Source: a virus
Taxonomy: Duplodnaviria > Heunggongvirae > Uroviricota > Caudoviricetes
Reading direction: 5' to 3' (one strand)
Virus record (IMG/VR): IMGVR_UViG_2663762839_000007
Span: 1-10,248 of that record
Length of the DNA: 10,248 bases
In this document: positions 1-10,248 of the stretch, piece by piece
Numbering within the stretch: position 1 is the first letter of the stretch
Layout: the number at the start of each line of letters is the position of its first letter
Position numbers and translations under genes: made by a program
Notes under the pieces: model-generated
Database searches by the model: none
Told to the model about the DNA's origin: nothing
The model's input: the letters and a program-made list of their open reading frames with translations, nothing else

Positions 1-1
1 C

Positions 2-280
2 CAGCATATCGTCTGGTTCCCGCCAGTGAGCATTAATCTCCTGCTTACTATTTTGCTCGCGGTCGTTGCCGGTACAGTGGGATGCTTGCTGCGTCTTCCT
101 TCCAGCACGATGCTCATCCCGATGCTGGCGGGCGCAGTGCTCCAGTCTGGTCAGCTCATCACCATCGAACTACCGGAATGGCTGCTGGCGATGGCGTATA
201 TGGCAATTGGCTGGCGGATTGGTCTTGGTTTCGATACTATGATCATGTATAGTTGGTTGTCGTTTTGCCATGTGGTTTAG
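2..280 (+). CDS. AbrB-family (PF05145-like) membrane protein, partial: reading frame is open from the window start, so the 5' end lies outside the window; the last ~15 codons are AT-rich and probably not native
   Basis: Hydrophobic translation with the AbrB-repeat pattern LP...ML.GA.L...LPEWLL.A...IGW.IG.GF; host-like GC and codon use up to about position 235, then an abrupt AT-rich stretch before the stop at 278-280. Family assignment is from recalled motif pattern, not a search. Confidence 0.5.
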   Translation, partial: QHIVWFPPVSINLLLTILLAVVAGTVGCLLRLPSSTMLIPMLAGAVLQSGQLITIELPEWLLAMAYMAIGWRIGLGFDTMIMYSWLSFCHVV

Positions 281-291
281 AAGGTGATTGA

Positions 292-1446
292 TTGTGTGTC
301 GATCCTTACCTATCATTGGTTTTATTCCAAAATCGAATAATTGGTGCTAAAGAAGTGAACAAAATTTCAGCGGTGAGCTTATTTACTGGGGCAGGAGGGA
401 TGGATGTCGGTTTCTCTAATGCCGGGTTCCGAACAGTTTGGGCCAATGATATAGATAAGGATGCATGTGATACATTTAAGCTTAATCATGAATCACCTGT
501 TTTTTGTGGTGATATTGATGAGATGCTAAGTGAATTGTCTGGGCTGAAAAATATAGGTTGTGTTTTTGGTGGGCCTCCATGCCAAGGATTTTCTGTGGCA
601 GGGAAAATGGACGCTCATGATCCACGTAGTAAGCTGGTTATGTCATTCATGCGGGCGGTGGATATAATTCAACCAGAATGCTTTGTTATGGAGAATGTTA
701 AGGCTTTAGCACAGTTGTCCAAATTTGAACCAGTTAGGTGTGAACTGTTTAAGATGGCTGAAAAGTCAGGCTATCGTTCAGCCTTGCTGGTGCTGAATTC
801 TAAAGATTTTGGCGTTCCTCAGAATAGGGAACGTATGTTTTTTATAGGGTTTCGTTCCGAAAATGATGTGAAACGAGTTGAGGCGGCGATAAAAAAATAC
901 CAATATCTTTCGCCAACAGTTGGTGAGATTATTCGGCCTTTAGGGCGAGCGGGTAATCCAAATAATTCAAGAGTCTGTAATGCAAGGATTACAAATGCTG
1001 CTAAGCCAGTATTACGGAAGTCACCTTACGCGGGAATGATGTTTAACGGGCAGGGAAGACCAATTAACCCGAATGGGTATGCTTCAACTATAGCTGCTTC
1101 TATGGGGGGGAATAGGACACCAATTATTGATGAAGAACACCTTTATGATGGCTCAACAAGTTATGTTGAGACTTATCATAATCATCTAATGAATGGTGGT
1201 GAGCCAAAAGATATGCACGATGTACCTAGTCGTTTACGTCGACTAACGATAGATGAGGCTCTTTTGATTCAAACATTCCCGAGTAATTATGTCTTTGTGG
1301 GGAAAAATTCGTCAATTTGGCGTCAGATAGGGAATGCTGTGCCTTGTAAATTGGCGCAGGCTGTTGCTGCAGGGGTTTTGGATGTCCTTACTGGTAAAAC
1401 TATTAATGTTCAAAAGAGTCAAACAGAGTTGAGTTTGAATTCGTAA
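292..1446 (+). CDS. DNA (cytosine-5)-methyltransferase, no adjacent restriction endonuclease (orphan); start uncertain (TTG 292 after AAGGTGA, or GTG 355 giving a typical short N-terminus before motif I)
   Basis: All canonical C5-MTase motifs are visible in order: motif I LFTGAGGMDVGF, motif IV GGPPCQGFS (catalytic Cys), motif VI ENVKAL, motif VIII QNRERMFFIGF, a variable target-recognition region, then motif X GNAVP. The gene is clearly more AT-rich than the flanking phage and host DNA. Confidence 0.9.
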   Translation: MCVDPYLSLVLFQNRIIGAKEVNKISAVSLFTGAGGMDVGFSNAGFRTVWANDIDKDACDTFKLNHESPVFCGDIDEMLSELSGLKNIGCVFGGPPCQGFSVAGKMDAHDPRSKLVMSFMRAVDIIQPECFVMENVKALAQLSKFEPVRCELFKMAEKSGYRSALLVLNSKDFGVPQNRERMFFIGFRSENDVKRVEAAIKKYQYLSPTVGEIIRPLGRAGNPNNSRVCNARITNAAKPVLRKSPYAGMMFNGQGRPINPNGYASTIAASMGGNRTPIIDEEHLYDGSTSYVETYHNHLMNGGEPKDMHDVPSRLRRLTIDEALLIQTFPSNYVFVGKNSSIWRQIGNAVPCKLAQAVAAGVLDVLTGKTINVQKSQTELSLNS

Positions 1447-1602
1447 AACGGATCACATTTTCAAACCGATGGATGCAGAATTTAACATTGCTGCATGAGT
1501 TTGCATCTTGAAATCATAAGCTGTACTGCTTAGCTTGACCAGAATTGATGTGGGTAAGAAGTGGTTATGCACCCGCATTAAAACCGCCCCATTAAGCGGG
1601 CG

Positions 1603-1621
1603 GGCGAGGCGGGGAAAGCAC
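1603..1621. other. P2-type cos site (19-nt cohesive-end sequence GGCGAGGCGGGGAAAGCAC)
   Basis: Exact 19-mer that I recall as the P2 cohesive end, located just beyond the 3' end of the portal gene Q, as in P2. Recognition is from memory and needs alignment to confirm. Confidence 0.55.
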
Positions 1622-1763
1622 TGCGCGCTGGCGGTGGTGCTGATTTTATTTTTTCAGCGTCTGAGCGCGTCTTGATGGCGTTTAGATTGTGCACCGGGGC
1701 GTTGGTGTGTCTGCGGGCTGTTTTGTGCGGTGGTGAGTGTGTGAGGGCGTGATGACGGGGTGT

Positions 1764-1785
1764 AAAAAAGCCGCCCGCAGGCGGC
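1764..1785 (-). terminator. Rho-independent terminator after the P-Q operon
   Basis: On the minus strand, GCCGCC-TGCG-GGCGGC hairpin followed by TTTTTT, immediately downstream of the Q stop. Confidence 0.6.
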
Positions 1786-1790
1786 GATGT

Positions 1791-2825
1791 TCAGCCGTTG
1801 TCAGTGTCCAGTGAGTAGTTTTTAAAGCGGATGACCTCCTGACCGAGCCAGCCGTTTATCTCGCGGATCCTGTCCTGTAACGGGATAAGCTCATTGCGGA
1901 CAAAGACCTTTGCCACTTTCTCAATATCGCCCAGTGACCCGACGTTCTCCGGCTTGCCGCCCATCAACTGAAAGGGGATGCGGTGCGCGTCCAGCAGGTC
2001 AGCGGCGCTGGCTTTTTTGATATTAAAAAAATCGTCCTTCGTTGCCACTTCACTGAGCGGGATAATTTTGATGCCGTCGGCTTTCCCCTGTGGGGCATAG
2101 AGAAACAGATTTTTAAAGTTGTTGCGGCCTTTCGACTTCACCATGTTTTCGCGGAGCATTTCGATATCGTTGCGATCCTGCACGGCATCGGTGACGTACA
2201 TGATGTATCCGGCATGAGCGCCGTTTTCGTAATACTTGCGGCGGAACAGCGTGGCCGACTCATTCAGCCAGGCAGAGTTAAGGGCGCTGAGATATTCCGG
2301 CAGGCCGTACAGCTCCTGATTAATATCCGGCTCCAGCAGGTGAAACACGGAGCCGGGTGCGAAGGCTGTCGGCTCGTTGAAGGACGGCACCCACCAGTAA
2401 ACATCCTCTTCCACACCACGGCGGGTATATTTTGCCGGTGAGGTTTCCAGTCTGATGACCTTACCGGTGGTGCTGTAACGCTTTTCCAGAAATGCATTAC
2501 CGAATACCAGAAAATCCAGCACAAAGCGGCTGAAATCCTGTTGCGAAAGCCACGGATGCGGGATAAATGTCGAGGCCAGAATATTACGTTTGACGTAAAT
2601 CGGTGAGCTGTGATGCACGGCAGCACGCAGGCTTTTTGCCAGACCGGTAAAGCTGACCGGTGGCTCATACCATCTGCCGTTACTGATGCACTCGACGTAA
2701 TCCAGAATGTCACGGCGGTCGAGTACCGGCACCGGCTCACCAAAGGTGAATGCCTCCATTTTCGGGGCGCTGGCGGTCATTTTTTTTGCCGCAGGTTGCG
2801 GTGTTTTCCCTTTTTTCTTGCTCAT
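1791..2825 (-). CDS. Q: Portal vertex protein (P2 gpQ-like)
   Basis: 344-aa ORF matching the P2 gpQ sequence and length as recalled; its ATG overlaps the P stop (ATGA), indicating translational coupling. Confidence 0.92.
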   Translation of the reverse strand: MSKKKGKTPQPAAKKMTASAPKMEAFTFGEPVPVLDRRDILDYVECISNGRWYEPPVSFTGLAKSLRAAVHHSSPIYVKRNILASTFIPHPWLSQQDFSRFVLDFLVFGNAFLEKRYSTTGKVIRLETSPAKYTRRGVEEDVYWWVPSFNEPTAFAPGSVFHLLEPDINQELYGLPEYLSALNSAWLNESATLFRRKYYENGAHAGYIMYVTDAVQDRNDIEMLRENMVKSKGRNNFKNLFLYAPQGKADGIKIIPLSEVATKDDFFNIKKASAADLLDAHRIPFQLMGGKPENVGSLGDIEKVAKVFVRNELIPLQDRIREINGWLGQEVIRFKNYSLDTDNG

Positions 2826-4597
2826 CAGTAAAACTCCAGAATGGTGGATGTCAGCGGGGTGCTGATACCGGCGGTGAGTGGCTCATTTAACAGGGCGTGC
2901 ATGGTCGCCCAGGCGAGATCGGCGTGGCTGGCTTCCTCGCTGCGGCTGGCCTCATAGGTGGCGCTGCGTCCGCTGCTGGTCATGGTCTTGCGGATAGCCA
3001 TAAACGAGCTGGTGATGTCGGTGGCGCTGACGTCATATTCCAGACAGCCACGGCGAATAACGTCTTTTGCCTTGAGCACCATTGCGGTTTTCATTTCCGG
3101 CGTGTAGCGGATATCTCGCGCGGCGGGATAGAACGAGCGCACGAGCTGGAACACGCCGACACCGAGGCCGGTGGCATCAATACCGATGTATTCGACGTTG
3201 TATTTTTCGGTGAGTTTGCGGATGGATTCCGCCTGAGTGGCAAAGTCCATGCCTTTCCACTGGTGACGCTCAAGTATTCTGAATTTGCCACCGGCCACCA
3301 CCGGCGGTGCCAGCACCACGCATCCGGCGCTGTCGCCACGGTGTGACGGGTCGTAACCAATCCATACCGGGCGGGAGCCGAACGGATTCGCGGCAAACGG
3401 CGCATAGTCTTCCCATTCTTCCAGCGTGTCGACCATGCAGCGTTGCAGCTCCTCGAACGGGAACACCGACGCCTTGTCGTCAACAAATTCACACATGAAC
3501 AGGTTTTTAAAATCGTCGGCGCTGTTTTCACGTTTGAGCTGCTCAATGTCGAACAGTGTGCAGCCACCTTTCAGGGCATCCTCAATGGTGACAATCTGCC
3601 GCCACTGGCCGTCCGCACAGAGAAGACCTCCGGCAAGGGCGTTATGACTGACGTCGATTTCCACACGTTCGGCGGCGCTGGCGCGTCCCCGGTTGAACAG
3701 TTCACCCGACCAGAACGGGTAGGCGTCGTGCGCCAGCGTGGACGGGGTGGAGAAATAGGTCGAGCGCAGGTGACTCTGTGAGGCCATACCTGATGCCACC
3801 TTACGCAGTACCTGAAAATTCGGGATCCAGAAAATCTCGTCGACGTACAGGTCGCCGTTATGGCTCTGCGCGGTGTTGGAGTTGGTGCCGAGAAAAATCA
3901 GTTTTGCGCCGTTATTGCCCAGGACAATCGGGTCACCGGTCAGGTCAACGTCAACCAGCCGGGCAAAGGCGATGATGTATTCGCGGAACACATACGCCTG
4001 CGTTTTACTGGCCGACAGAAAAATCTGGTTATGACCGGTTTTCAGGGCGCGCAGCAGCGCCTCGCGGGAAAAATAAAACGTCGCGCCAATCTGGCGGGAT
4101 TTCAGGATATCGCGGATGCGGTGCTCAAGCCCGGCACGATACCAGTGCAACTGATAGTCGAAAGACTGCTCAAAGAAAATCTGCTCCAGCTTTTCGATGG
4201 CCTCGTCACTGAAAAAATTCTTTTTCGGTTTGCGCCGCCCGCCTTTGTTGCGGTTAGCGACGTTCGGATTAAGGTCTGCCTCGTTGCCGGTCTGACTGTA
4301 ACGGTTTACCCGTGCCAGTCGTTCAATCTGGCGTCCGAGCAGGTCAATTTCCTTGAAGTCACCGCCGGTTTTCTGCGGTTTGATGATGAGCTGGGTCAGC
4401 CGCGCTTCCAGACTCATTTCGACACGGCTGATGGGGGCAACGCTGTCCCAGCCGTCGCGCTGTTTCCAGCTCTGCACCGTCGGGCGTTTCATCTGCAACA
4501 TGGCGGCAATCTGCGGCACGGAAAATCCCTGCCAGTACAGCAGCGCCGCCTGACGACGCGGGTCGTGTAAAAGAGTGGTGTCTGTGGTGATGGTCAT
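2825..4597 (-). CDS. P: Terminase large (ATPase) subunit (P2 gpP-like)
   Basis: The six-frame ORF starts at a TTG at 4627, but the ATG at 4597 is preceded by GAGG at a 5-nt spacing and gives MTITTDTTLL and a 590-aa product, matching P2 gpP as recalled. Confidence 0.92.
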   Translation of the reverse strand: MTITTDTTLLHDPRRQAALLYWQGFSVPQIAAMLQMKRPTVQSWKQRDGWDSVAPISRVEMSLEARLTQLIIKPQKTGGDFKEIDLLGRQIERLARVNRYSQTGNEADLNPNVANRNKGGRRKPKKNFFSDEAIEKLEQIFFEQSFDYQLHWYRAGLEHRIRDILKSRQIGATFYFSREALLRALKTGHNQIFLSASKTQAYVFREYIIAFARLVDVDLTGDPIVLGNNGAKLIFLGTNSNTAQSHNGDLYVDEIFWIPNFQVLRKVASGMASQSHLRSTYFSTPSTLAHDAYPFWSGELFNRGRASAAERVEIDVSHNALAGGLLCADGQWRQIVTIEDALKGGCTLFDIEQLKRENSADDFKNLFMCEFVDDKASVFPFEELQRCMVDTLEEWEDYAPFAANPFGSRPVWIGYDPSHRGDSAGCVVLAPPVVAGGKFRILERHQWKGMDFATQAESIRKLTEKYNVEYIGIDATGLGVGVFQLVRSFYPAARDIRYTPEMKTAMVLKAKDVIRRGCLEYDVSATDITSSFMAIRKTMTSSGRSATYEASRSEEASHADLAWATMHALLNEPLTAGISTPLTSTILEFY

Positions 4598-4770
4598 GAA
4601 TACCTCGCCGTGATGAATACACGGCAAGGCTACTGAGTCGCGCCCTGCGATTCGCTAAGGTGCTGTTGTGTCAGTGATAAGCCATCCGGGACTGATGGCG
4701 GAGGATGCGCATCGTCGGGAAACTGATGCCGACATGTGACTCCTCTAATCACTATTCAGGACTCCTGACA
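4598..4770. promoter_or_regulatory. Divergent late-promoter region between P (leftward) and O (rightward), equivalent to the Ogr-dependent P2 promoters
   Basis: Position between divergently transcribed late operons as in P2; contains a near-direct repeat ACTGATGGCG (4691-4700) and ACTGATGCCG (4722-4731). I could not find a clean TGT-N12-ACA Ogr-type dyad, so no individual site is called. Confidence 0.45.
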
Positions 4771-5625
4771 ATGGCAAAAAAAGTCTCAAAATTCTTTCGT
4801 ATCGGCGTTGAGGGTGACACCTGTGACGGGCGTGTCATCAGTGCGCAGGATATTCAGGAAATGGCCGAAACCTTTGACCCGCGTGTCTACGGTTGCCGCA
4901 TTAACCTGGAACATCTGCGCGGCATCCTGCCTGACGGTATTTTTAAGCGTTATGGCGATGTGGCCGAACTGAAGGCCGAAAAGATTGACGATGATTCGGC
5001 GCTGAAAGGCAAATGGGCGCTGTTTGCGAAAATCACCCCGACCGATGACCTTATCGCGATGAACAAGGCCGCGCAGAAGGTCTACACCTCAATGGAAATT
5101 CAGCCGAACTTTGCCAACACCGGCAAATGTTATCTGGTGGGGCTGGCCGTTACCGATGACCCGGCAAGCCTCGGTACGGAATACCTGGAATTCTGCCGCA
5201 CGGTAAAACACAACCCCCTGAACCGCTTCAAATTAAGCCCTGAAAACCTGATTTCAGTGGCAACGCCTGTTGAGCTGGAATTTGAAGACCTGCCTGAAAC
5301 CGTGTTCACCGCCCTGACCGAAAAGGTGAAATCCATTTTTGGCCGCAAACAGGCCAGCGATGACGCCCGTCTGAATGACGTGCATGAAGCGGTGACCGCT
5401 GTTGCTGAACATGTGCAGGAAAAACTGAGCGCCACTGAGCAGCGCCTCGCTGAGATGGAAACTGCCTTTTCCGCTCTTAAGCAGGAGGTGACTGACAGGG
5501 CGGATGAAACCAGCCAGGCATTCACCCGCCTGAAAAACAGCCTCGACCACACCGAAAGTCTGACCCAGCAGCGCCGCAGCAAGGCCACCGGCGGTGGCGG
5601 TGACGCGCTGATGACGAACTGCTGA
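4771..5625 (+). CDS. O: Capsid scaffolding protein (P2 gpO-like)
   Basis: The ORF track starts at 4705, but the ATG at 4771 gives MAKKVSKFFRIGVEGDTCDG and a 284-aa product, matching P2 gpO as recalled. Confidence 0.9.
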   Translation: MAKKVSKFFRIGVEGDTCDGRVISAQDIQEMAETFDPRVYGCRINLEHLRGILPDGIFKRYGDVAELKAEKIDDDSALKGKWALFAKITPTDDLIAMNKAAQKVYTSMEIQPNFANTGKCYLVGLAVTDDPASLGTEYLEFCRTVKHNPLNRFKLSPENLISVATPVELEFEDLPETVFTALTEKVKSIFGRKQASDDARLNDVHEAVTAVAEHVQEKLSATEQRLAEMETAFSALKQEVTDRADETSQAFTRLKNSLDHTESLTQQRRSKATGGGGDALMTNC

Positions 5626-5683
5626 CCGGCGTCAGTCAGTCCGGGAAAACCTTCACGATTAACCCTTAATTTCAGGAAAAACT

Positions 5684-6757
5684 ATGCGCCAGGAAACCCG
5701 CTTTAAATTTAATGCCTACCTGTCCCGTGTTGCCGAACTGAACGGCATCGACGCCGGTGATGTGTCGAAAAAATTCACCGTTGAACCGTCGGTCACCCAG
5801 ACCCTGATGAACACCATGCAGGAGTCCTCTGACTTTCTGACCCGCATCAACATTGTGCCGGTCAGCGAAATGAAAGGGGAAAAAATTGGCATCGGTGTCA
5901 CCGGCTCCATCGCCAGCACCACCGACACCGCCGGTGGCACCGAGCGTCAGCCGAAGGACTTCTCGAAGCTGGCGTCAAACAAGTACGAATGCGACCAGAT
6001 TAACTTCGATTTTTATATCCGCTACAAAACGCTGGACCTGTGGGCGCGTTATCAGGATTTCCAGCTCCGTGTCCGTAACGCCATTATCAAACGCCAGTCC
6101 CTTGATTTAATCATGGCCGGTTTTAACGGCGTGAGGCGTGCCGAAACCTCTGACCGCAGCAGCAATCCGATGCTGCAGGATGTGGCGGTCGGCTGGCTGC
6201 AGAAATACCGCAATGAAGCCCCGGCGCGCGTGATGAGCAAGGTCACTGACGAGGAAGGTCACACGACCTCTGAGGTTATCCGCGTGGGTAAGGGCGGTGA
6301 TTATGCCAGCCTTGACGCACTGGTGATGGATGCGACCAACAACCTGATTGAGCCGTGGTATCAGGAAGACCCTGACCTTGTGGTGATTGTGGGACGTCAG
6401 CTACTGGCGGACAAGTATTTTCCCATCGTCAACAAGGAGCAGGACAACAGCGAAATGCTGGCCGCTGACGTCATCATCAGCCAGAAACGCATCGGTAACC
6501 TGCCGGCGGTACGCGTCCCGTACTTCCCGGCGGATGCGATGCTCATCACGAAGCTGGAAAACCTGTCCATCTACTACATGGATGACAGCCATCGCCGCGT
6601 GATTGAGGAAAACCCGAAACTCGACCGCGTGGAGAACTACGAGTCAATGAACATTGATTACGTGGTGGAAGACTACGCCGCCGGTTGTCTGGTGGAAAAA
6701 ATTAAGGTCGGTGATTTCTCCACACCGGCTAAGGCGACCGCAGAGCCGGGAGCGTAA
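5684..6757 (+). CDS. N: Major capsid protein (P2 gpN-like)
   Basis: 357-aa ORF with an AGGAAA ribosome-binding site; sequence and length match P2 gpN as recalled. Confidence 0.92.
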   Translation: MRQETRFKFNAYLSRVAELNGIDAGDVSKKFTVEPSVTQTLMNTMQESSDFLTRINIVPVSEMKGEKIGIGVTGSIASTTDTAGGTERQPKDFSKLASNKYECDQINFDFYIRYKTLDLWARYQDFQLRVRNAIIKRQSLDLIMAGFNGVRRAETSDRSSNPMLQDVAVGWLQKYRNEAPARVMSKVTDEEGHTTSEVIRVGKGGDYASLDALVMDATNNLIEPWYQEDPDLVVIVGRQLLADKYFPIVNKEQDNSEMLAADVIISQKRIGNLPAVRVPYFPADAMLITKLENLSIYYMDDSHRRVIEENPKLDRVENYESMNIDYVVEDYAAGCLVEKIKVGDFSTPAKATAEPGA

Positions 6758-6760
6758 CCG

Positions 6761-7504
6761 ATGACGAGTCCCGCACAGCGCCACATGATGCGGGTCTCGG
6801 CAGCGATGACCGCGCAGCGGGAAGCCGCCCCGCTGCGACATGCAACTGTCTATGAGCAGATGCTGGTTAAGCTCGCCGCAGACCAGCGCACACTGAAAGC
6901 GATTTATTCAAAAGAGCTGAAGGCTGCGAAAAAACGCGAACTGCTGCCGTTCTGGTTGCCGTGGGTGAACGGTGTGCTTGAGCAGGGCAAAGGTGCACAG
7001 GATGACATTCTGATGACGGTCATGCTGTGGCGTCTGGATACCGGCGATATTGCCGGTGCGCTGGAGATTGCCCGTTATGCCCTGAAGTACGGTCTGACCA
7101 TGCCGGGTAAACACCGTCGCACCCCGCCGTACATGTTCACCGAGGAGGTGGCGCTCGCGGCCATGCGCGCCCACGCTGCCGGTGAGTCTGTGGATCCCCG
7201 CCTGCTGACGGACACCCTCGAACTGACCGCCACGGCTGACATGCCTGATGAAGTGCGCGCAAAGCTGCACAAAATCACCGGTCTGTTTCTGCGTGACGCT
7301 GGTGATGCCGCAGGGGCGCTGGCGCACCTGCAACGTGCGACACAGCTCGACTGTCAGGCAGGCGTCAAAAAAGAGATTGAACGACTGGAGCGGGAGCTGA
7401 AACCGAAGCCGGAGCCGCAGCCCAAAGCGGCCACCCGCGCCCCGCGTAAGACCCGGAGCGTGACACCGGCAAAACGTGGACGCCCGAAAAAGAAAGCCAG
7501 TTAA
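6761..7504 (+). CDS. M: Terminase small (endonuclease) subunit (P2 gpM-like)
   Basis: 247-aa ORF starting 3 nt after the N stop, with a basic C-terminal tail; matches P2 gpM as recalled. Confidence 0.9.
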   Translation: MTSPAQRHMMRVSAAMTAQREAAPLRHATVYEQMLVKLAADQRTLKAIYSKELKAAKKRELLPFWLPWVNGVLEQGKGAQDDILMTVMLWRLDTGDIAGALEIARYALKYGLTMPGKHRRTPPYMFTEEVALAAMRAHAAGESVDPRLLTDTLELTATADMPDEVRAKLHKITGLFLRDAGDAAGALAHLQRATQLDCQAGVKKEIERLERELKPKPEPQPKAATRAPRKTRSVTPAKRGRPKKKAS

Positions 7505-7603
7505 CAACCGAATGCGCCCCGCGCCAGGGCGGCACGCCGGTCAGTGAGGGTGAATCACCTGACACTGCACCGGCGTCCACCGCCCGACTTTTCAGAGGTA
7601 GTC

Positions 7604-8113
7604 ATGATGACGCTGATTATTCCGCGAAAGGAGGCTCCCGTGTCCGGTGAGGGTACGGTGGTCATCCCGCAACCGGCAGGCGACGAGCCGGTGATTAAAA
7701 ACACGTTCTTTTTTCCCGATATCGACCCGAAGCGCGTCCGGGAACGTATGCGCCTTGAGCAGACCGTCGCCCCCGCCCGTCTGCGTGAGGCCATCAAGTC
7801 AGGCATGGCTGAAACGAATGCGGAGCTGTACGAGTACCGCGAACAGAAAATTGCCGCCGGTTTTACGCGTCTGGCTGACGTCCCGGCGGACGACATCGAC
7901 GGTGAAAGCATCAAAGTTTTTTACTACGAGCGCGCCGTGTGTGCGATGGCGACCGCGTCGCTTTATGAGCGTTATCGCGGCGTGGATGCCAGTGCGAAAG
8001 GCGACAAGAAGGCCGACAGCATTGACAGCACCATTGATGAGCTGTGGCGGGATATGCGCTGGGCAGTGGCGCGCATCCAGGACAAGCCACGCTGCATCGT
8101 GAGTCAAATCTGA
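7604..8113 (+). CDS. L: Head completion/stabilisation protein (P2 gpL-like)
   Basis: The ATG at 7604 is preceded by GAGG and gives MMTLIIPRKEAP and 169 aa, the P2 gpL length as recalled; the longer ORF from 7544 has no ribosome-binding site. Confidence 0.88.
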   Translation: MMTLIIPRKEAPVSGEGTVVIPQPAGDEPVIKNTFFFPDIDPKRVRERMRLEQTVAPARLREAIKSGMAETNAELYEYREQKIAAGFTRLADVPADDIDGESIKVFYYERAVCAMATASLYERYRGVDASAKGDKKADSIDSTIDELWRDMRWAVARIQDKPRCIVSQI

Positions 8114-8316
8114 TGAAGACCTTTGCGCTACAGGGCGACACGCTCGACGCCATTTGTGTCCGGTATTACGGGCGCACTGAGGGCGTGGTCGAAGCCGTGC
8201 TCGCCGCAAATCCGGGACTGGCTGAACTGGGCGCGGTGCTGCCGCACGGCACCGCCGTCGAACTGCCCGACGTTCAGACCGCGCCCGTGGCTGAAACTGT
8301 CAATCTGTGGGAGTAA
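8113..8316 (+). CDS. X: Tail protein X (P2 gpX-like)
   Basis: 67-aa product MKTFALQGDTLDAIC...; its ATG overlaps the L stop (ATGA), as in P2. Confidence 0.85.
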   Translation: MKTFALQGDTLDAICVRYYGRTEGVVEAVLAANPGLAELGAVLPHGTAVELPDVQTAPVAETVNLWE

Positions 8317-8319
8317 CGC

Positions 8320-8547
8320 ATGACAGCAGAAGAAAAAAGCGTCCTGTCGCTTTTCATGATTGGGGTGCTGATTGTTGTCGGCAAGGTGCTTGCCGGTGGT
8401 GAACCCATCACCCCGCGTCTGTTTATCGGGCGCATGTTGCTCGGTGGTTTTGTCTCGATGGTTGCCGGTGTTGTTCTGGTGCAGTTTCCTGACCTGTCAT
8501 TGCCTGCGGTGTGCGGCATCGGCTCCATGCTGGGTATCGCCGGTTAA
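8320..8547 (+). CDS. Y: Holin (P2 gpY-like), probably C-terminally truncated
   Basis: 75-aa product with three hydrophobic segments; the ORF stops inside the third segment with no charged C-terminal tail. I recall P2 gpY as about 93 aa. The stop is followed directly by the ribosome-binding site and start of U. Confidence 0.6.
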   Translation: MTAEEKSVLSLFMIGVLIVVGKVLAGGEPITPRLFIGRMLLGGFVSMVAGVVLVQFPDLSLPAVCGIGSMLGIAG

Positions 8548-8561
8548 GGAGGTGACGAAAA

Positions 8562-9011
8562 ATGATGCTCGCGTTAGGTATGTTTGTTTTTATGCGCCAG
8601 ACGCTGCCACACCAGACCATGCAGCGTGAATCAGATTATCGCTGGCCGTCAAATTCCCGTATCGGCAAACGGGATGCCTTTCAGTTTCTCGGTGTGGGTG
8701 AGGAAAACATCACGCTTGCCGGTGTGCTTTATCCCGAACTGACCGGCGGAAAGCTGACGATGACCACGCTCAGGCTGATGGCAGAGGAGGGGCGGGCGTG
8801 GCCGTTGCTGGATGGCACCGGCATGATTTACGGCATGTATGTCATCAGCAGGGTGAGTGAAACAGGGAGTATTTTCTTTGCAGACGGCACACCCCGGAAA
8901 ATTGATTTTACGCTGTCACTCACCCGCGTTGATGAATCACTGGCCGCGCTTTATGGCGATATCGGTATGCCAGCATGCCGCACATGCGCGTACAAGCCGC
9001 TATATCACTGA
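8562..9011 (+). CDS. U: Tail protein U (P2 gpU-like) with a non-native 3' end that reads out of frame into ogr
   Basis: AAGGAGGTGA ribosome-binding site before the ATG at 8562. The first ~135 aa look like gpU; the last 14 codons (MPACRTCAYKPLYH) are the ogr zinc-finger region read in another frame, and gene D is absent. Confidence 0.7.
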   Translation: MMLALGMFVFMRQTLPHQTMQRESDYRWPSNSRIGKRDAFQFLGVGEENITLAGVLYPELTGGKLTMTTLRLMAEEGRAWPLLDGTGMIYGMYVISRVSETGSIFFADGTPRKIDFTLSLTRVDESLAALYGDIGMPACRTCAYKPLYH

Positions 9012-9168
9012 CACGACAAAAGAGCGTTATCACCAGTGTCAGAACGTGAATTGCAGCGCCACGTTCATCACTTATGAGTCGGTACAGCGATACATCGTGA
9101 AGCCGGGAGAAGTCCACGCCGTAAGGCCGCACCCATTGCCGTCAGGGCAGCAAATTATGTGGATGTAA
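8953..9168 (+). CDS. ogr: Ogr/Delta-family zinc-finger late-gene activator, N-terminally altered (possible pseudogene)
   Basis: Translation from ATG 8953 gives MAISVCQHAAHARTSRYITDTTKERYHQCQNVNCSATF..., matching P2 Ogr from Cys7 onward as recalled. The N-terminal MFHCPLC is replaced by MAISVC, so the first cysteine of the C4 finger is missing, and no ribosome-binding site precedes the ATG. Confidence 0.75.
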   Translation: MAISVCQHAAHARTSRYITDTTKERYHQCQNVNCSATFITYESVQRYIVKPGEVHAVRPHPLPSGQQIMWM

Positions 9169-9180
9169 TTACAAACAGAA

Positions 9181-9208
9181 AGCCCCCTCAGTCGAGGGGG
9201 CTTTTTTG
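9181..9208 (+). terminator. Rho-independent terminator downstream of ogr
   Basis: AGCCCCCTC-AGTC-GAGGGGGCT perfect 9-bp stem followed by TTTTTT, 13 nt after the ogr stop. Confidence 0.85.
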
Positions 9209-9270
9209 TCGATGTGGTCAATGTGTGGACGTGACCAGAAATAAATCCTTTTATTTCATGTGATTAGATA

Positions 9271-9297
9271 TCAAAAAATGTCACCAATAACTGACAT
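9271..9297 (-). pseudogene. pflA: pflA 5' remnant: start codon plus four codons (MSVIG) fused to unrelated sequence, stop after 8 codons
   Basis: Minus strand reads GGAGAAACACCGCA-ATG TCA GTT ATT GGT, a ribosome-binding site followed by the MSVIG start I recall for E. coli PflA, lying 191 bp downstream of the pflB stop. Homology ends after codon 5 (GAC ATT TTT TGA). Confidence 0.6.
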
Positions 9298-9419
9298 TGC
9301 GGTGTTTCTCCAGATGTGGCCCATCTGAGGCCGTGTTGGTGCGCAGCTCGAAGGCTACGTCGAGTCTGTTTTGGCAGTCACCTTAAAGTATAGATAGCTG
9401 ACAAAAAAGGCTCTCGTGC

Positions 9420-9445
9420 TAAAAAAGGCCCCACTTTCGTGGAGC
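9420..9445 (-). terminator. Rho-independent terminator downstream of pflB
   Basis: On the minus strand, GGCTCCAC-GAAA-GTGGGGCC hairpin followed by TTTTTT, about 45 nt after the pflB stop. Confidence 0.7.
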
Positions 9446-9488
9446 CTTTATTGTACGCTTTTTACTGTACGATTTCAGTCAAATCTAA

Positions 9489-10248
9489 TTACATAGATTG
9501 AGTGAAGGTACGAGTAATAACGTCCTGCTGCTGTTCTTTAGTCAGCGAGTTGAAACGTACTGCGTAGCCAGATACACGGATGGTCAGCTGCGGATATTTT
9601 TCCGGGTTTTCCATCGCGTCAAGCAGCATTTCACGGTTCATCACGTTAACGTTCAGGTGCTGACCACCTTCGATGGATGCTTCGTGGTGGAAGTAACCAT
9701 CCATCAGACCTGCCAGGTTGGTCTTACGAACTTCGTCGTCTTTACCCAGTGCGTTCGGAACGATAGAGAAGGTGTAGGAGATACCATCTTTAGCGTAAGC
9801 AAACGGCAGTTTAGCAACGGAAGTCAGAGACGCTACAGCACCTTTCTGGTCACGACCGTGCATCGGGTTAGCACCCGGTCCGAACGGCGCGCCAGCACGA
9901 CGACCGTCTGGGGTGTTACCAGTTTTCTTACCATACACAACGTTAGACGTGATGGTCAGAACAGACTGAGTCGGGATAGCGTCACGGTAGGTGTGCAGTT
10001 TCTGAATTTTCTTCATGAAACGTTCTACCAGGTCAACAGCCAGGTCATCTACACGCGGATCGTTGTTACCAAACTGCGGGTATTCGCCTTCGATTTCGAA
10101 GTCGATAGCCAGACCGTCTTCGTCACGAATCGGTTTAACTTTCGCATATTTGATTGCAGACAGGGAGTCAGCAGCAACGGACAGACCAGCGATACCACAC
10201 GCCATGGTGCGGATAACGTCACGGTCGTGCAGCGCCATCAGAGAGGCT
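9489..10248 (-). CDS. pflB: Pyruvate formate-lyase (glycyl radical enzyme), C-terminal ~250 codons; the 5' end lies beyond the window
   Basis: Translation ends ...[34 protein letters not shown], containing the glycyl-radical motif RVSGYAV and the PflB C-terminus as recalled; codon usage is strongly E. coli-like and the frame stays open to the window end. Confidence 0.88.

What the first reader, a model, noticed from the sequence alone, without database searches (positions are those of the whole stretch)
8320..8561. Holin frame ends inside its third hydrophobic segment and abuts the start of U: apparent deletion of the entire lysis and tail block
The Y-like product lacks the charged C-terminal tail typical of class I holins and stops at GIAG, immediately before the ribosome-binding site of U. 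In P2 the genes K, lysA/B/C, R, S, V, W, J, I, H, G, FI, FII, E and T lie between Y and U, so a single deletion of many kilobases with endpoints inside Y and at the T/U boundary would explain the arrangement. The element can neither lyse the cell nor build tails. A truncated holin could still be membrane-active, so expression is worth checking.
Basis: partly seen in the sequence, partly recalled or inferred. Interest (0 to 1): 0.4.

Follow-up and report, generated by a model that had tools for sequence, protein, structure and literature searches.

The report
Truncated holin at prophage deletion scar
This is the scar of a 15-kb deletion in a defective P2-like prophage of E. coli that cut off the end of the holin gene and removed all lysis and tail genes, which is ordinary prophage decay, except that the same cut point in the holin gene recurs in unrelated remnants.

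Summary
Window 8320-8547 encodes residues 1-75 of the 93-residue P2 holin Y, 75/75 identical. Homology to P2 then jumps from P2 6828 to P2 21877 across a shared CGGTTA. The TAA that ends the frame is the stop codon of tape-measure gene T, and the ribosome-binding site and start of U follow as in P2. About 15,054 bp are missing: the Y tail, K, lysA/B/C, R, S, V, W, J, I, H, G, FI, FII, E, T and three other genes.

The product lacks the last third of its third transmembrane segment and the basic tail, so I predict it is non-lytic. Its activator gene ogr is also truncated, and U is cut at codon 135.

This junction was found in no complete E. coli genome, phage record, GTDB representative genome or IMG/VR contig. 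That makes it ordinary prophage decay.

One thing was unexpected. The identical 75-residue product occurs on 36 contigs, with the same left endpoint joined to at least six different right endpoints. Other endpoints in P2-like remnants recur at nucleotide resolution too (8 coincident pairs; 0 of 20,000 simulations reach this). The cause is unknown.

The parts
8320..8547 (+). Y': truncated holin ORF (75 codons plus TAA), equal to P2 Y residues 1-75
   Evidence: 75/75 identical. (PF04550 positions 1-75 of 86, E = 7.8e-36).
8541..8546 (.). CGGTTA microhomology at the deletion junction (P2 6823-6828 and P2 21877-21882); about 15,054 bp lost between the two copies
8545..8547 (+). TAA stop codon of Y', which is the stop codon of tape-measure gene T (P2 21881-21883)
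8547..8552 (+). AGGAGG, the native ribosome-binding site of U, now directly after Y'
8562..9011 (+). U': tail gene U codons 1-135 (135/135 identical to P2) plus 14 out-of-frame codons read from ogr DNA
   Evidence: (PF06995 positions 1-120 of 120).
8966..8967 (.). Second deletion junction (TA overlap): P2 22303 joined to 23638. It removes the 3' end of U, all of D and ogr codons 1-6.
8968..9168 (+). 'ogr: late-gene activator from codon 7 to its stop; lacks its start codon and Cys4 of the zinc finger
   Evidence: (PF04606 positions 4-47 of 47).
1567..8316 (.). Retained P2 block: cos region, then Q and P (- strand) and O, N, M, L, X (+ strand), all full length, 98.4% identical to P2
   Evidence: (P/O intergenic region 173/174 identical to P2).
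236..237 (.). Junction of an abrB fragment (1-236) with the prophage moron region; needs an inversion or translocation, or the contig is chimeric
400..1446 (+). Orphan C5 DNA methyltransferase left from a SacI-family restriction-modification cassette of the prophage

Best explanation
Window 8320-8561 is the scar of one illegitimate-recombination deletion in a P2-like (Peduovirus) prophage integrated next to pflB in E. coli. The window is the whole 10,248-bp draft contig CDRI01000239.1 of assembly GCA_000946855.1.

Shown:
- Recombination between two CGGTTA hexamers, one in holin codons 74-76 and one spanning the last codons of T, removed about 15,054 bp.
- The deletion took the last 18 codons of Y and all of K, lysA, lysB, lysC, R, S, orf30, V, W, J, I, H, G, the Z/fun region, FI, FII, E/E' and T.
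- The holin frame now runs straight into T's TAA, and U's ribosome-binding site and start follow as in P2.
- A second deletion fuses U codon 135 to ogr codon 7.

Inferred:
- The 75-residue product keeps transmembrane segments 1 and 2 and about 17 of about 25 residues of segment 3. It loses all C-terminal basic residues, so it should not form lethal holes.
- It lies in the Ogr-dependent O-N-M-L-X-Y late operon, and ogr is broken. It should therefore be silent unless a related phage or a P4-type satellite supplies an activator in trans.
- The fragment is a pseudogene in a decaying prophage.
For: - Sequence identity and the jump in homology.
- Base-level junction, microhomology and origin of the stop codon.
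- Product identity and truncated Pfam match.
- Hydropathy of P2 Y: the third hydrophobic stretch runs to about residue 83 and is followed by QRRFKGRGKP.
- Gene content of the deleted interval in P2 and in intact annotated prophages.
- All full-length homologues are 93-106 aa.
- Every examined context of the 75-aa form is a deletion derivative.
- No sigma-70-like promoter on the + strand in 7400-9500.
- ogr lacks codons 1-6.
- The Y'/U junction was absent from 5,426 complete E. coli genomes, GTDB representative genomes, INPHARED phages and IMG/VR. This fits a private, recent event.
Against: - The source is a short draft contig seen in one sample. It carries three rearrangement junctions in 10 kb, so a chimeric assembly is not formally excluded.
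- Non-function of the fragment is inferred by analogy with lambda S and from the positive-inside rule; it was not tested.
- The exact 75-aa product recurs in independent remnants (36 contigs). That could mean it is more than debris.
Confidence: 0.88

Rival explanations
1. The 75-residue N-terminal holin fragment is a selected, functional product. It could be a dominant-negative antiholin that is switched on by the Ogr of a superinfecting P2-like phage and poisons that phage's holin. The deletion scar is then kept because it is useful.
For: - The identical 75-aa product occurs on 36 contigs and in at least six different deletion contexts.
- It keeps transmembrane segments 1 and 2.
- It stays in the late operon, whose P/O intergenic control region is 173/174 identical to P2.
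Against: - Neighbouring endpoints at codons 72, 73 and 76, with arbitrary out-of-frame tails, are about as recurrent. This points to a mutational hot spot, not selection for one exact product.
- Endpoints outside Y recur as well.
- No experiment bears on it.
- Blocking lysis would not rescue an infected cell.
Confidence: 0.07
2. The junction is an assembly artefact: a chimeric contig joining reads from separate parts of an intact prophage.
For: - The window is one small draft contig from one sample.
- It holds three junctions.
- The abrB/pflB arrangement is incompatible with a simple deletion.
Against: - The overlap at the junction is 6 bp (2 bp at the second junction), far below any assembler k-mer.
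- The same kind of junction, with the same left endpoint, is present in other assemblies, including a 4.68-Mb contig. Comparable junctions with nearby or other endpoints are present in complete genomes.
Confidence: 0.04
3. The element is a capsid-only satellite (like a capsid-forming PICI) that makes its own heads and borrows tails from a helper. It is not a decayed prophage.
For: The cos region and Q, P, O, N, M, L, X are all full length, and every tail gene except a U fragment is gone.
Against: - The retained block is 98.4% identical to P2 itself.
- Its borders are truncated genes (Y', U', 'ogr), which are scars and not designed ends.
- No integrase, replication or regulatory module is on the contig.
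- Sister remnants lose different, arbitrary gene sets, capsid genes included.
Confidence: 0.01

Closest known systems
Bacteriophage P2 gene Y (class I holin, Pfam PF04550)
   Same: Residues 1-75 are identical. The position after X in the late O-N-M-L-X-Y operon is the same.
   Different: It lacks residues 76-93: the end of the third transmembrane segment and the basic cytoplasmic tail. It is no longer followed by the endolysin gene K.
Cryptic P2 remnant of E. coli K-12 (ogrK plus a fragment of gene D near yegQ/yegR)
   Same: It is also a P2-like prophage reduced by internal deletion. Its left boundary in D (P2 23330/1) is an endpoint reused by two other remnants.
   Different: The K-12 remnant keeps only about 0.6 kb, with an intact ogr. 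The window keeps the whole head module, has a broken ogr, and sits at a different attachment site (pflB).
P2-like prophage of E. coli KFu022 at the same pflB site
   Same: Same insertion site. It also carries a tail-region deletion that ends near the 3' end of T, just upstream of U.
   Different: It is an independent event (P2 8844 joined to 21715, through a 19-nt imperfect repeat). It keeps Y, K, lysA/B/C, R, U, D and ogr intact.
C-terminal nonsense alleles of the lambda holin S (Blasi et al. 1999, from my own knowledge)
   Same: A class I holin shortened from the C terminus.
   Different: The lambda alleles stay lytic only while at least one C-terminal basic residue remains and the third transmembrane segment is intact. 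Y(1-75) has neither.

Membership tests
P2 Y-type class I holin (Pfam PF04550, Phage_holin_3_2) | Significant match to the family model | tested here: met
   E = 7.8e-36, 122.8 bits against a cut-off of 25, but only model positions 1-75 of 86.
P2 Y-type class I holin (Pfam PF04550, Phage_holin_3_2) | Three complete transmembrane segments | tested here: not met
   The Kyte-Doolittle profile of P2 Y shows the third hydrophobic stretch running from about residue 59 to 83. The product stops at 75.
P2 Y-type class I holin (Pfam PF04550, Phage_holin_3_2) | Hydrophilic, net-positive C-terminal tail | tested here: not met
   QRRFKGRGKP is absent and the product ends in GIAG. Full-length homologues are 93-106 aa.
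P2 Y-type class I holin (Pfam PF04550, Phage_holin_3_2) | Part of a lysis cassette, with the endolysin gene immediately downstream | tested here: not met
   In intact relatives a GH24 endolysin gene follows the holin gene. Here U follows.
P2 Y-type class I holin (Pfam PF04550, Phage_holin_3_2) | Forms lethal membrane holes at a programmed time | not testable with these tools
   Needs expression in E. coli with lysis or membrane-potential read-outs.
P2-like (Peduovirus) prophage | Collinear head module cos-Q-P / O-N-M-L-X-Y with high identity to P2 | tested here: met
   Window 1567-8546 matches P2 32389-32541 plus 1-6828 at 98.4% identity, with all seven genes full length.
P2-like (Peduovirus) prophage | Complete lysis, tail, D and ogr genes (a functional phage) | tested here: not met
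   P2 6829-21882 and 22304-23637 are absent.
P2-like (Peduovirus) prophage | Integrase, immunity and replication genes | tested here: inconclusive
   They are not on this contig. The left junction with abrB implies an inversion, so they may lie elsewhere in the genome.
Capsid-forming satellite (cf-PICI-like) | Own integrase, regulatory and replication module, plus a capsid module distinct from that of helper phages | tested here: not met
   No such module is on the contig. The capsid genes are 98.4% identical to P2 itself.

The most novel reading that the evidence does not exclude
P2-like prophages carry a small set of nucleotide-precise fragile sites at which independent deletions start or stop.

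The strongest site is in holin codons 72-76 (GGGTATCGCCGGTTATC, P2 6814-6830).
- Endpoint 6828-6830 is joined to at least ten different partners: in R, lysB, S (two different positions), V, H, the FII/E spacer, the T stop, ogr and FI.
- Endpoint 6818-6821 is joined to at least six.

Other endpoints are reused in new combinations by prophages at three different attachment sites: P2 8844-8847, 9049-9052, 10555/6, 11051, 23330/1 (also the boundary of the K-12 remnant) and 23638-40.

Breakpoints are enriched for CGG-N0-2-T-W / GGNTA just 5' of the cut. This would point to a sequence-directed breakage or pausing process, host-encoded or intrinsic to the DNA, that shapes how these prophages decay.
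Probability: 0.4. Interest if true: 0.6.

Novelty: new member of a known kind. Interest (0 to 1): 0.3.

Why it matters
The scar itself only shows that this E. coli strain carries a dead P2-like prophage that cannot lyse the cell or make tails. That is routine, useful for annotation, and a caution against calling the 75-residue ORF a holin.

The recurrence of the same breakpoints matters more. Prophage decay is usually modelled as random deletion filtered by selection. Endpoints shared to the nucleotide, in prophages at different attachment sites and with different partners, would mean the mutational input is strongly site-biased. That bias can be tested directly by large-scale breakpoint mapping and by deletion assays in repair mutants.

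Tried and rejected
1. Nonsense mutation instead of a deletion. Rejected: homology to P2 jumps from 6828 to 21877.

2. A natural short holin in intact phages. No phage or IMG/VR record has it. The single IMG/VR pattern hit was a diverged phage with a synonymous TAC codon.

3. A hairpin at the Y hot spot. A DNA fold of P2 6770-6880 is no better than shuffles (z = 0.34).

4. Chi-like sequences protecting the retained ends from RecBCD.
- P2 and the window have no Chi at all.
- Best Chi-like scores next to endpoints are barely above background (5.16 and 5.15 against 4.85 and 4.69), and the wrong orientation scores 5.08.
- Not supported.

5. A distal recognition site at a fixed offset, as for a type IIS or type III enzyme. 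No k-mer is shared by the recurrent sites beyond chance.

6. Integrase-mediated recombination at pseudo-att sites.
- Similarity to the canonical P2 core, which I recalled from memory, scored high in register.
- That score is circular with the GGTAA-like motif.
- The same endpoints are used by prophages at the pflB, cpxP-fieF and yegQ sites, which have different integrases and cores. Rejected as a general cause.

7. Longer microhomology as the explanation for the hot spot. Overlaps are 0-7 nt, and a 33-kb genome holds tens of thousands of such repeats (my own estimate, not run with a tool).

8. Literature. The functional study of P2 Y (To et al. 2013) is not held in the library. Searches for prophage deletion hot spots returned nothing relevant.

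Full report
**What is in the window.** The window is the complete 10,248-bp draft contig CDRI01000239.1 of assembly GCA_000946855.1 (locus L012). BLAST against phage P2 (NC_070905.1, locus L001) splits it as follows:

| Window | Matches |
|---|---|
| 1-236 | internal fragment of E. coli abrB |
| 237-1566 | prophage accessory region with a C5 DNA methyltransferase |
| 1567-1719 | P2 32389-32541 |
| 1720-8546 | P2 1-6828, 98.4% identical (cos, Q, P, O, N, M, L, X, start of Y) |
| 8541-8967 | P2 21877-22303 |
| 8966-9267 | P2 23638-23939 |
| 9489-10248 | 3' part of pflB (- strand) |

Q, P, O, N, M, L and X have the same lengths as in P2.

**The observation.**
- The ORF at 8320-8547 has 75 codons. 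Its product is identical to residues 1-75 of the 93-residue P2 holin Y.
- Pfam PF04550 matches over model positions 1-75 of 86, whereas P2 Y matches 1-86.
- At base level, P2 Y reads ...GGTATCGCCGGTTA|TCAGGTG, the end of P2 T reads ...GCATGACGGTTA|AGGAGGTGACGAAAAATGATG, and the window reads ...GGTATCGCCGGTTA|AGGAGGTGACGAAAAATGATG.
- The junction therefore lies in a shared CGGTTA. The TAA that closes the holin frame is T's own stop codon. AGGAGG and the ATG at 8562 are U's native translation signals.
- One repeat copy plus the intervening DNA is lost, which is 15,054 bp in P2 coordinates.
- The interval holds 19 annotated genes. In annotated intact relatives these are the GH24 endolysin, lysA, lysB, lysC, tail, baseplate, fibre, sheath, tube and tape-measure genes.

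**Corrections and context.**
- U is itself truncated. Codons 1-135 are identical to P2. A second junction (TA overlap, P2 22303 joined to 23638) then runs out of frame into ogr. It removes the end of U, all of D and ogr codons 1-6, including Cys4 of the zinc finger.
- A third junction at 236/237 joins abrB to the controller gene of a SacI-family restriction-modification cassette. Only the methyltransferase of that cassette remains.
- In an ordinary E. coli, abrB and pflB lie on the same strand, 218 kb apart, with infA, ftsK, lolA and serS between them. In the window they are on opposite strands. This junction therefore needs an inversion or translocation, or the contig is chimeric. The integrase and replication genes may lie elsewhere in the genome.

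**Likely function of the fragment.**
- Hydropathy of P2 Y shows three hydrophobic stretches. The third runs to about residue 83 and is followed by QRRFKGRGKP.
- Y(1-75) loses about a third of that segment and every C-terminal basic residue.
- From my own knowledge of lambda S (Blasi et al. 1999), C-terminal truncations stay lytic only if at least one basic residue remains. By analogy, and by the positive-inside rule, I infer that the fragment is lysis-defective.
- It sits in the late O-N-M-L-X-Y operon. The P/O intergenic region is 173/174 identical to P2, and no sigma-70-like promoter lies upstream on the + strand. From my own knowledge, that operon needs Ogr.
- Because ogr is broken here, expression should need an activator from another element. 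All of this is inference. The primary paper on P2 Y could not be read.

**How common it is.**
- The Y'/U junction is absent from 5,426 complete E. coli genomes, one genome per GTDB species, INPHARED phages and IMG/VR.
- Full-length homologues are 93-106 residues.

**The unexpected result.**
- The exact 75-residue sequence is nevertheless on 36 contigs.
- In the ten places fetched, the left endpoint is always P2 6828 (...GCCGGTTA|A). The right endpoint differs:

| Right endpoint (P2) | Location | Loci |
|---|---|---|
| 8427 | R | L006, L008 |
| about 8827 | S | L007 |
| 10555 | V | L003, L004, L010 |
| about 14485 | a tail-fibre H variant | L005 |
| 18984 | FII/E spacer | L009, L011 |
| 21877 | T stop | the window |

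- These prophages sit at no fewer than three attachment sites: pflB, cpxP-fieF and yegQ.
- A homology census of Y variants adds fusions that keep Tyr76 and then continue into lysB, S, ogr or FI. Three of these were checked at DNA level.
- The census also shows five or six events ending at codons 72-73 and five or six at codons 55-57, with few elsewhere in the visible range of codons 55-93.
- About 17 of about 31 events fall in P2 6814-6830. This count has limits: short-tailed variants are merged into one 90% cluster, only 120 of 181 hits were listed, and endpoints before codon 55 are invisible.

**Endpoints outside Y.** These were not the basis of retrieval, so they give a fairer test. Among 47 such endpoints from 31 distinct events, 8 pairs from different events coincide within 3 nt:

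| P2 endpoint | Events sharing it |
|---|---|
| 23330/1 | L016, L029, and the boundary of the K-12 ogrK/D remnant |
| 23638-40 | window junction 2, L025 |
| 9049-52 | L017, L019 |
| 11051 | L007, L026 |
| 10556 | right end in L003, left end in L023 |
| 8844-8847 | L002, L007 |

None of 20,000 simulations reaches 8. The null means are 0.23 for uniform placement and 0.52 when each endpoint is jittered by up to 150 nt to keep regional density.

**Sequence bias at breakpoints.** T is at position -2 in 30 of 45 parental sites. GGTA lies at -4/-5 in 8 of 23 sites, against a null maximum of 6 in 200 draws. CGG-N0-2-T-W lies within 10 nt 5' of the break in 13 of 47 sites, against 3.9% of all P2 positions. 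These motif statistics are post hoc, and the two partners of an event share their microhomology, so they overstate significance.

**Mechanisms tested for the recurrence, none supported.**
- Hairpin.
- Chi-like protection.
- Distal recognition site.
- Integrase pseudo-sites: the in-register score is circular with the motif, and the endpoints are shared across prophages with different integrases.
- Selection for the exact 75-residue product is unlikely to explain it, because adjacent endpoints with arbitrary tails, and endpoints in other genes, recur as well.
- I leave the cause open. A sequence-directed break or pause followed by microhomology joining is my leading guess.

**Verdict.** The reported feature is real and is ordinary prophage decay. 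It is a new instance of a known kind, so its interest is low in its own right. The recurrent breakpoints, found by following the 75-residue product into other genomes, are the part worth a follow-up.

Noticed in passing
window 8541-8546; loci L003-L011, L017, L025, L026: The left endpoint of the deletion (P2 6828-6830, in holin codons 75-76) is reused in independent remnants with at least ten different right partners. A second cluster lies 10 nt upstream (P2 6818-6821) and a third at codon 56 (P2 6769).
   Followed up: yes
loci L002, L003, L007, L016, L017, L019, L022 (K-12), L023, L025, L026, L029: Endpoints outside Y also recur to the nucleotide in different combinations: P2 8844-8847, 9049-52, 10555/6, 11051, 23330/1 and 23638-40. 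There are 8 coincident pairs, against 0.2-0.5 expected. The boundary of the E. coli K-12 ogrK/D remnant is one of these sites.
   Followed up: partly
window 8966-8967: A second deletion fuses U codon 135 out of frame to ogr codon 7. D is lost and Ogr has no start codon and no Cys4. A GTG-started ORF at 8857-9168 reads through in the ogr frame.
   Followed up: yes
window 1-237: An internal abrB fragment is joined to the prophage. abrB and pflB are on opposite strands here but on the same strand, 218 kb apart, in a normal genome. This implies an inversion or translocation, or a chimeric contig. The junction again follows ...CGATA.
   Followed up: partly
window 237-1446: Only the C5 methyltransferase of a SacI-family restriction-modification cassette is kept. 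That cassette sits at this position in 19 related intact prophages. The endonuclease gene and most of the controller gene are gone.
   Followed up: partly
window 1567-8316: The cos region and all head and packaging genes (Q, P, O, N, M, L) plus X are full length and 98.4% identical to P2, while every neighbouring module is deleted.
   Followed up: partly
L002 (E. coli KFu022), locus positions 12978-12996: A P2-like prophage at the same pflB site carries an independent deletion from R into the end of T, through a 19-nt imperfect repeat.
   Followed up: yes
whole window and L001 (P2): Neither strand of P2 NC_070905.1 nor of the window contains the Chi octamer GCTGGTGG.
   Followed up: partly
L007, L009, L017, L023: Single remnants often carry three to six separate internal deletions, while the retained DNA stays 96-98% identical to P2. 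Decay seems to proceed by many deletions and few point mutations.
   Followed up: no
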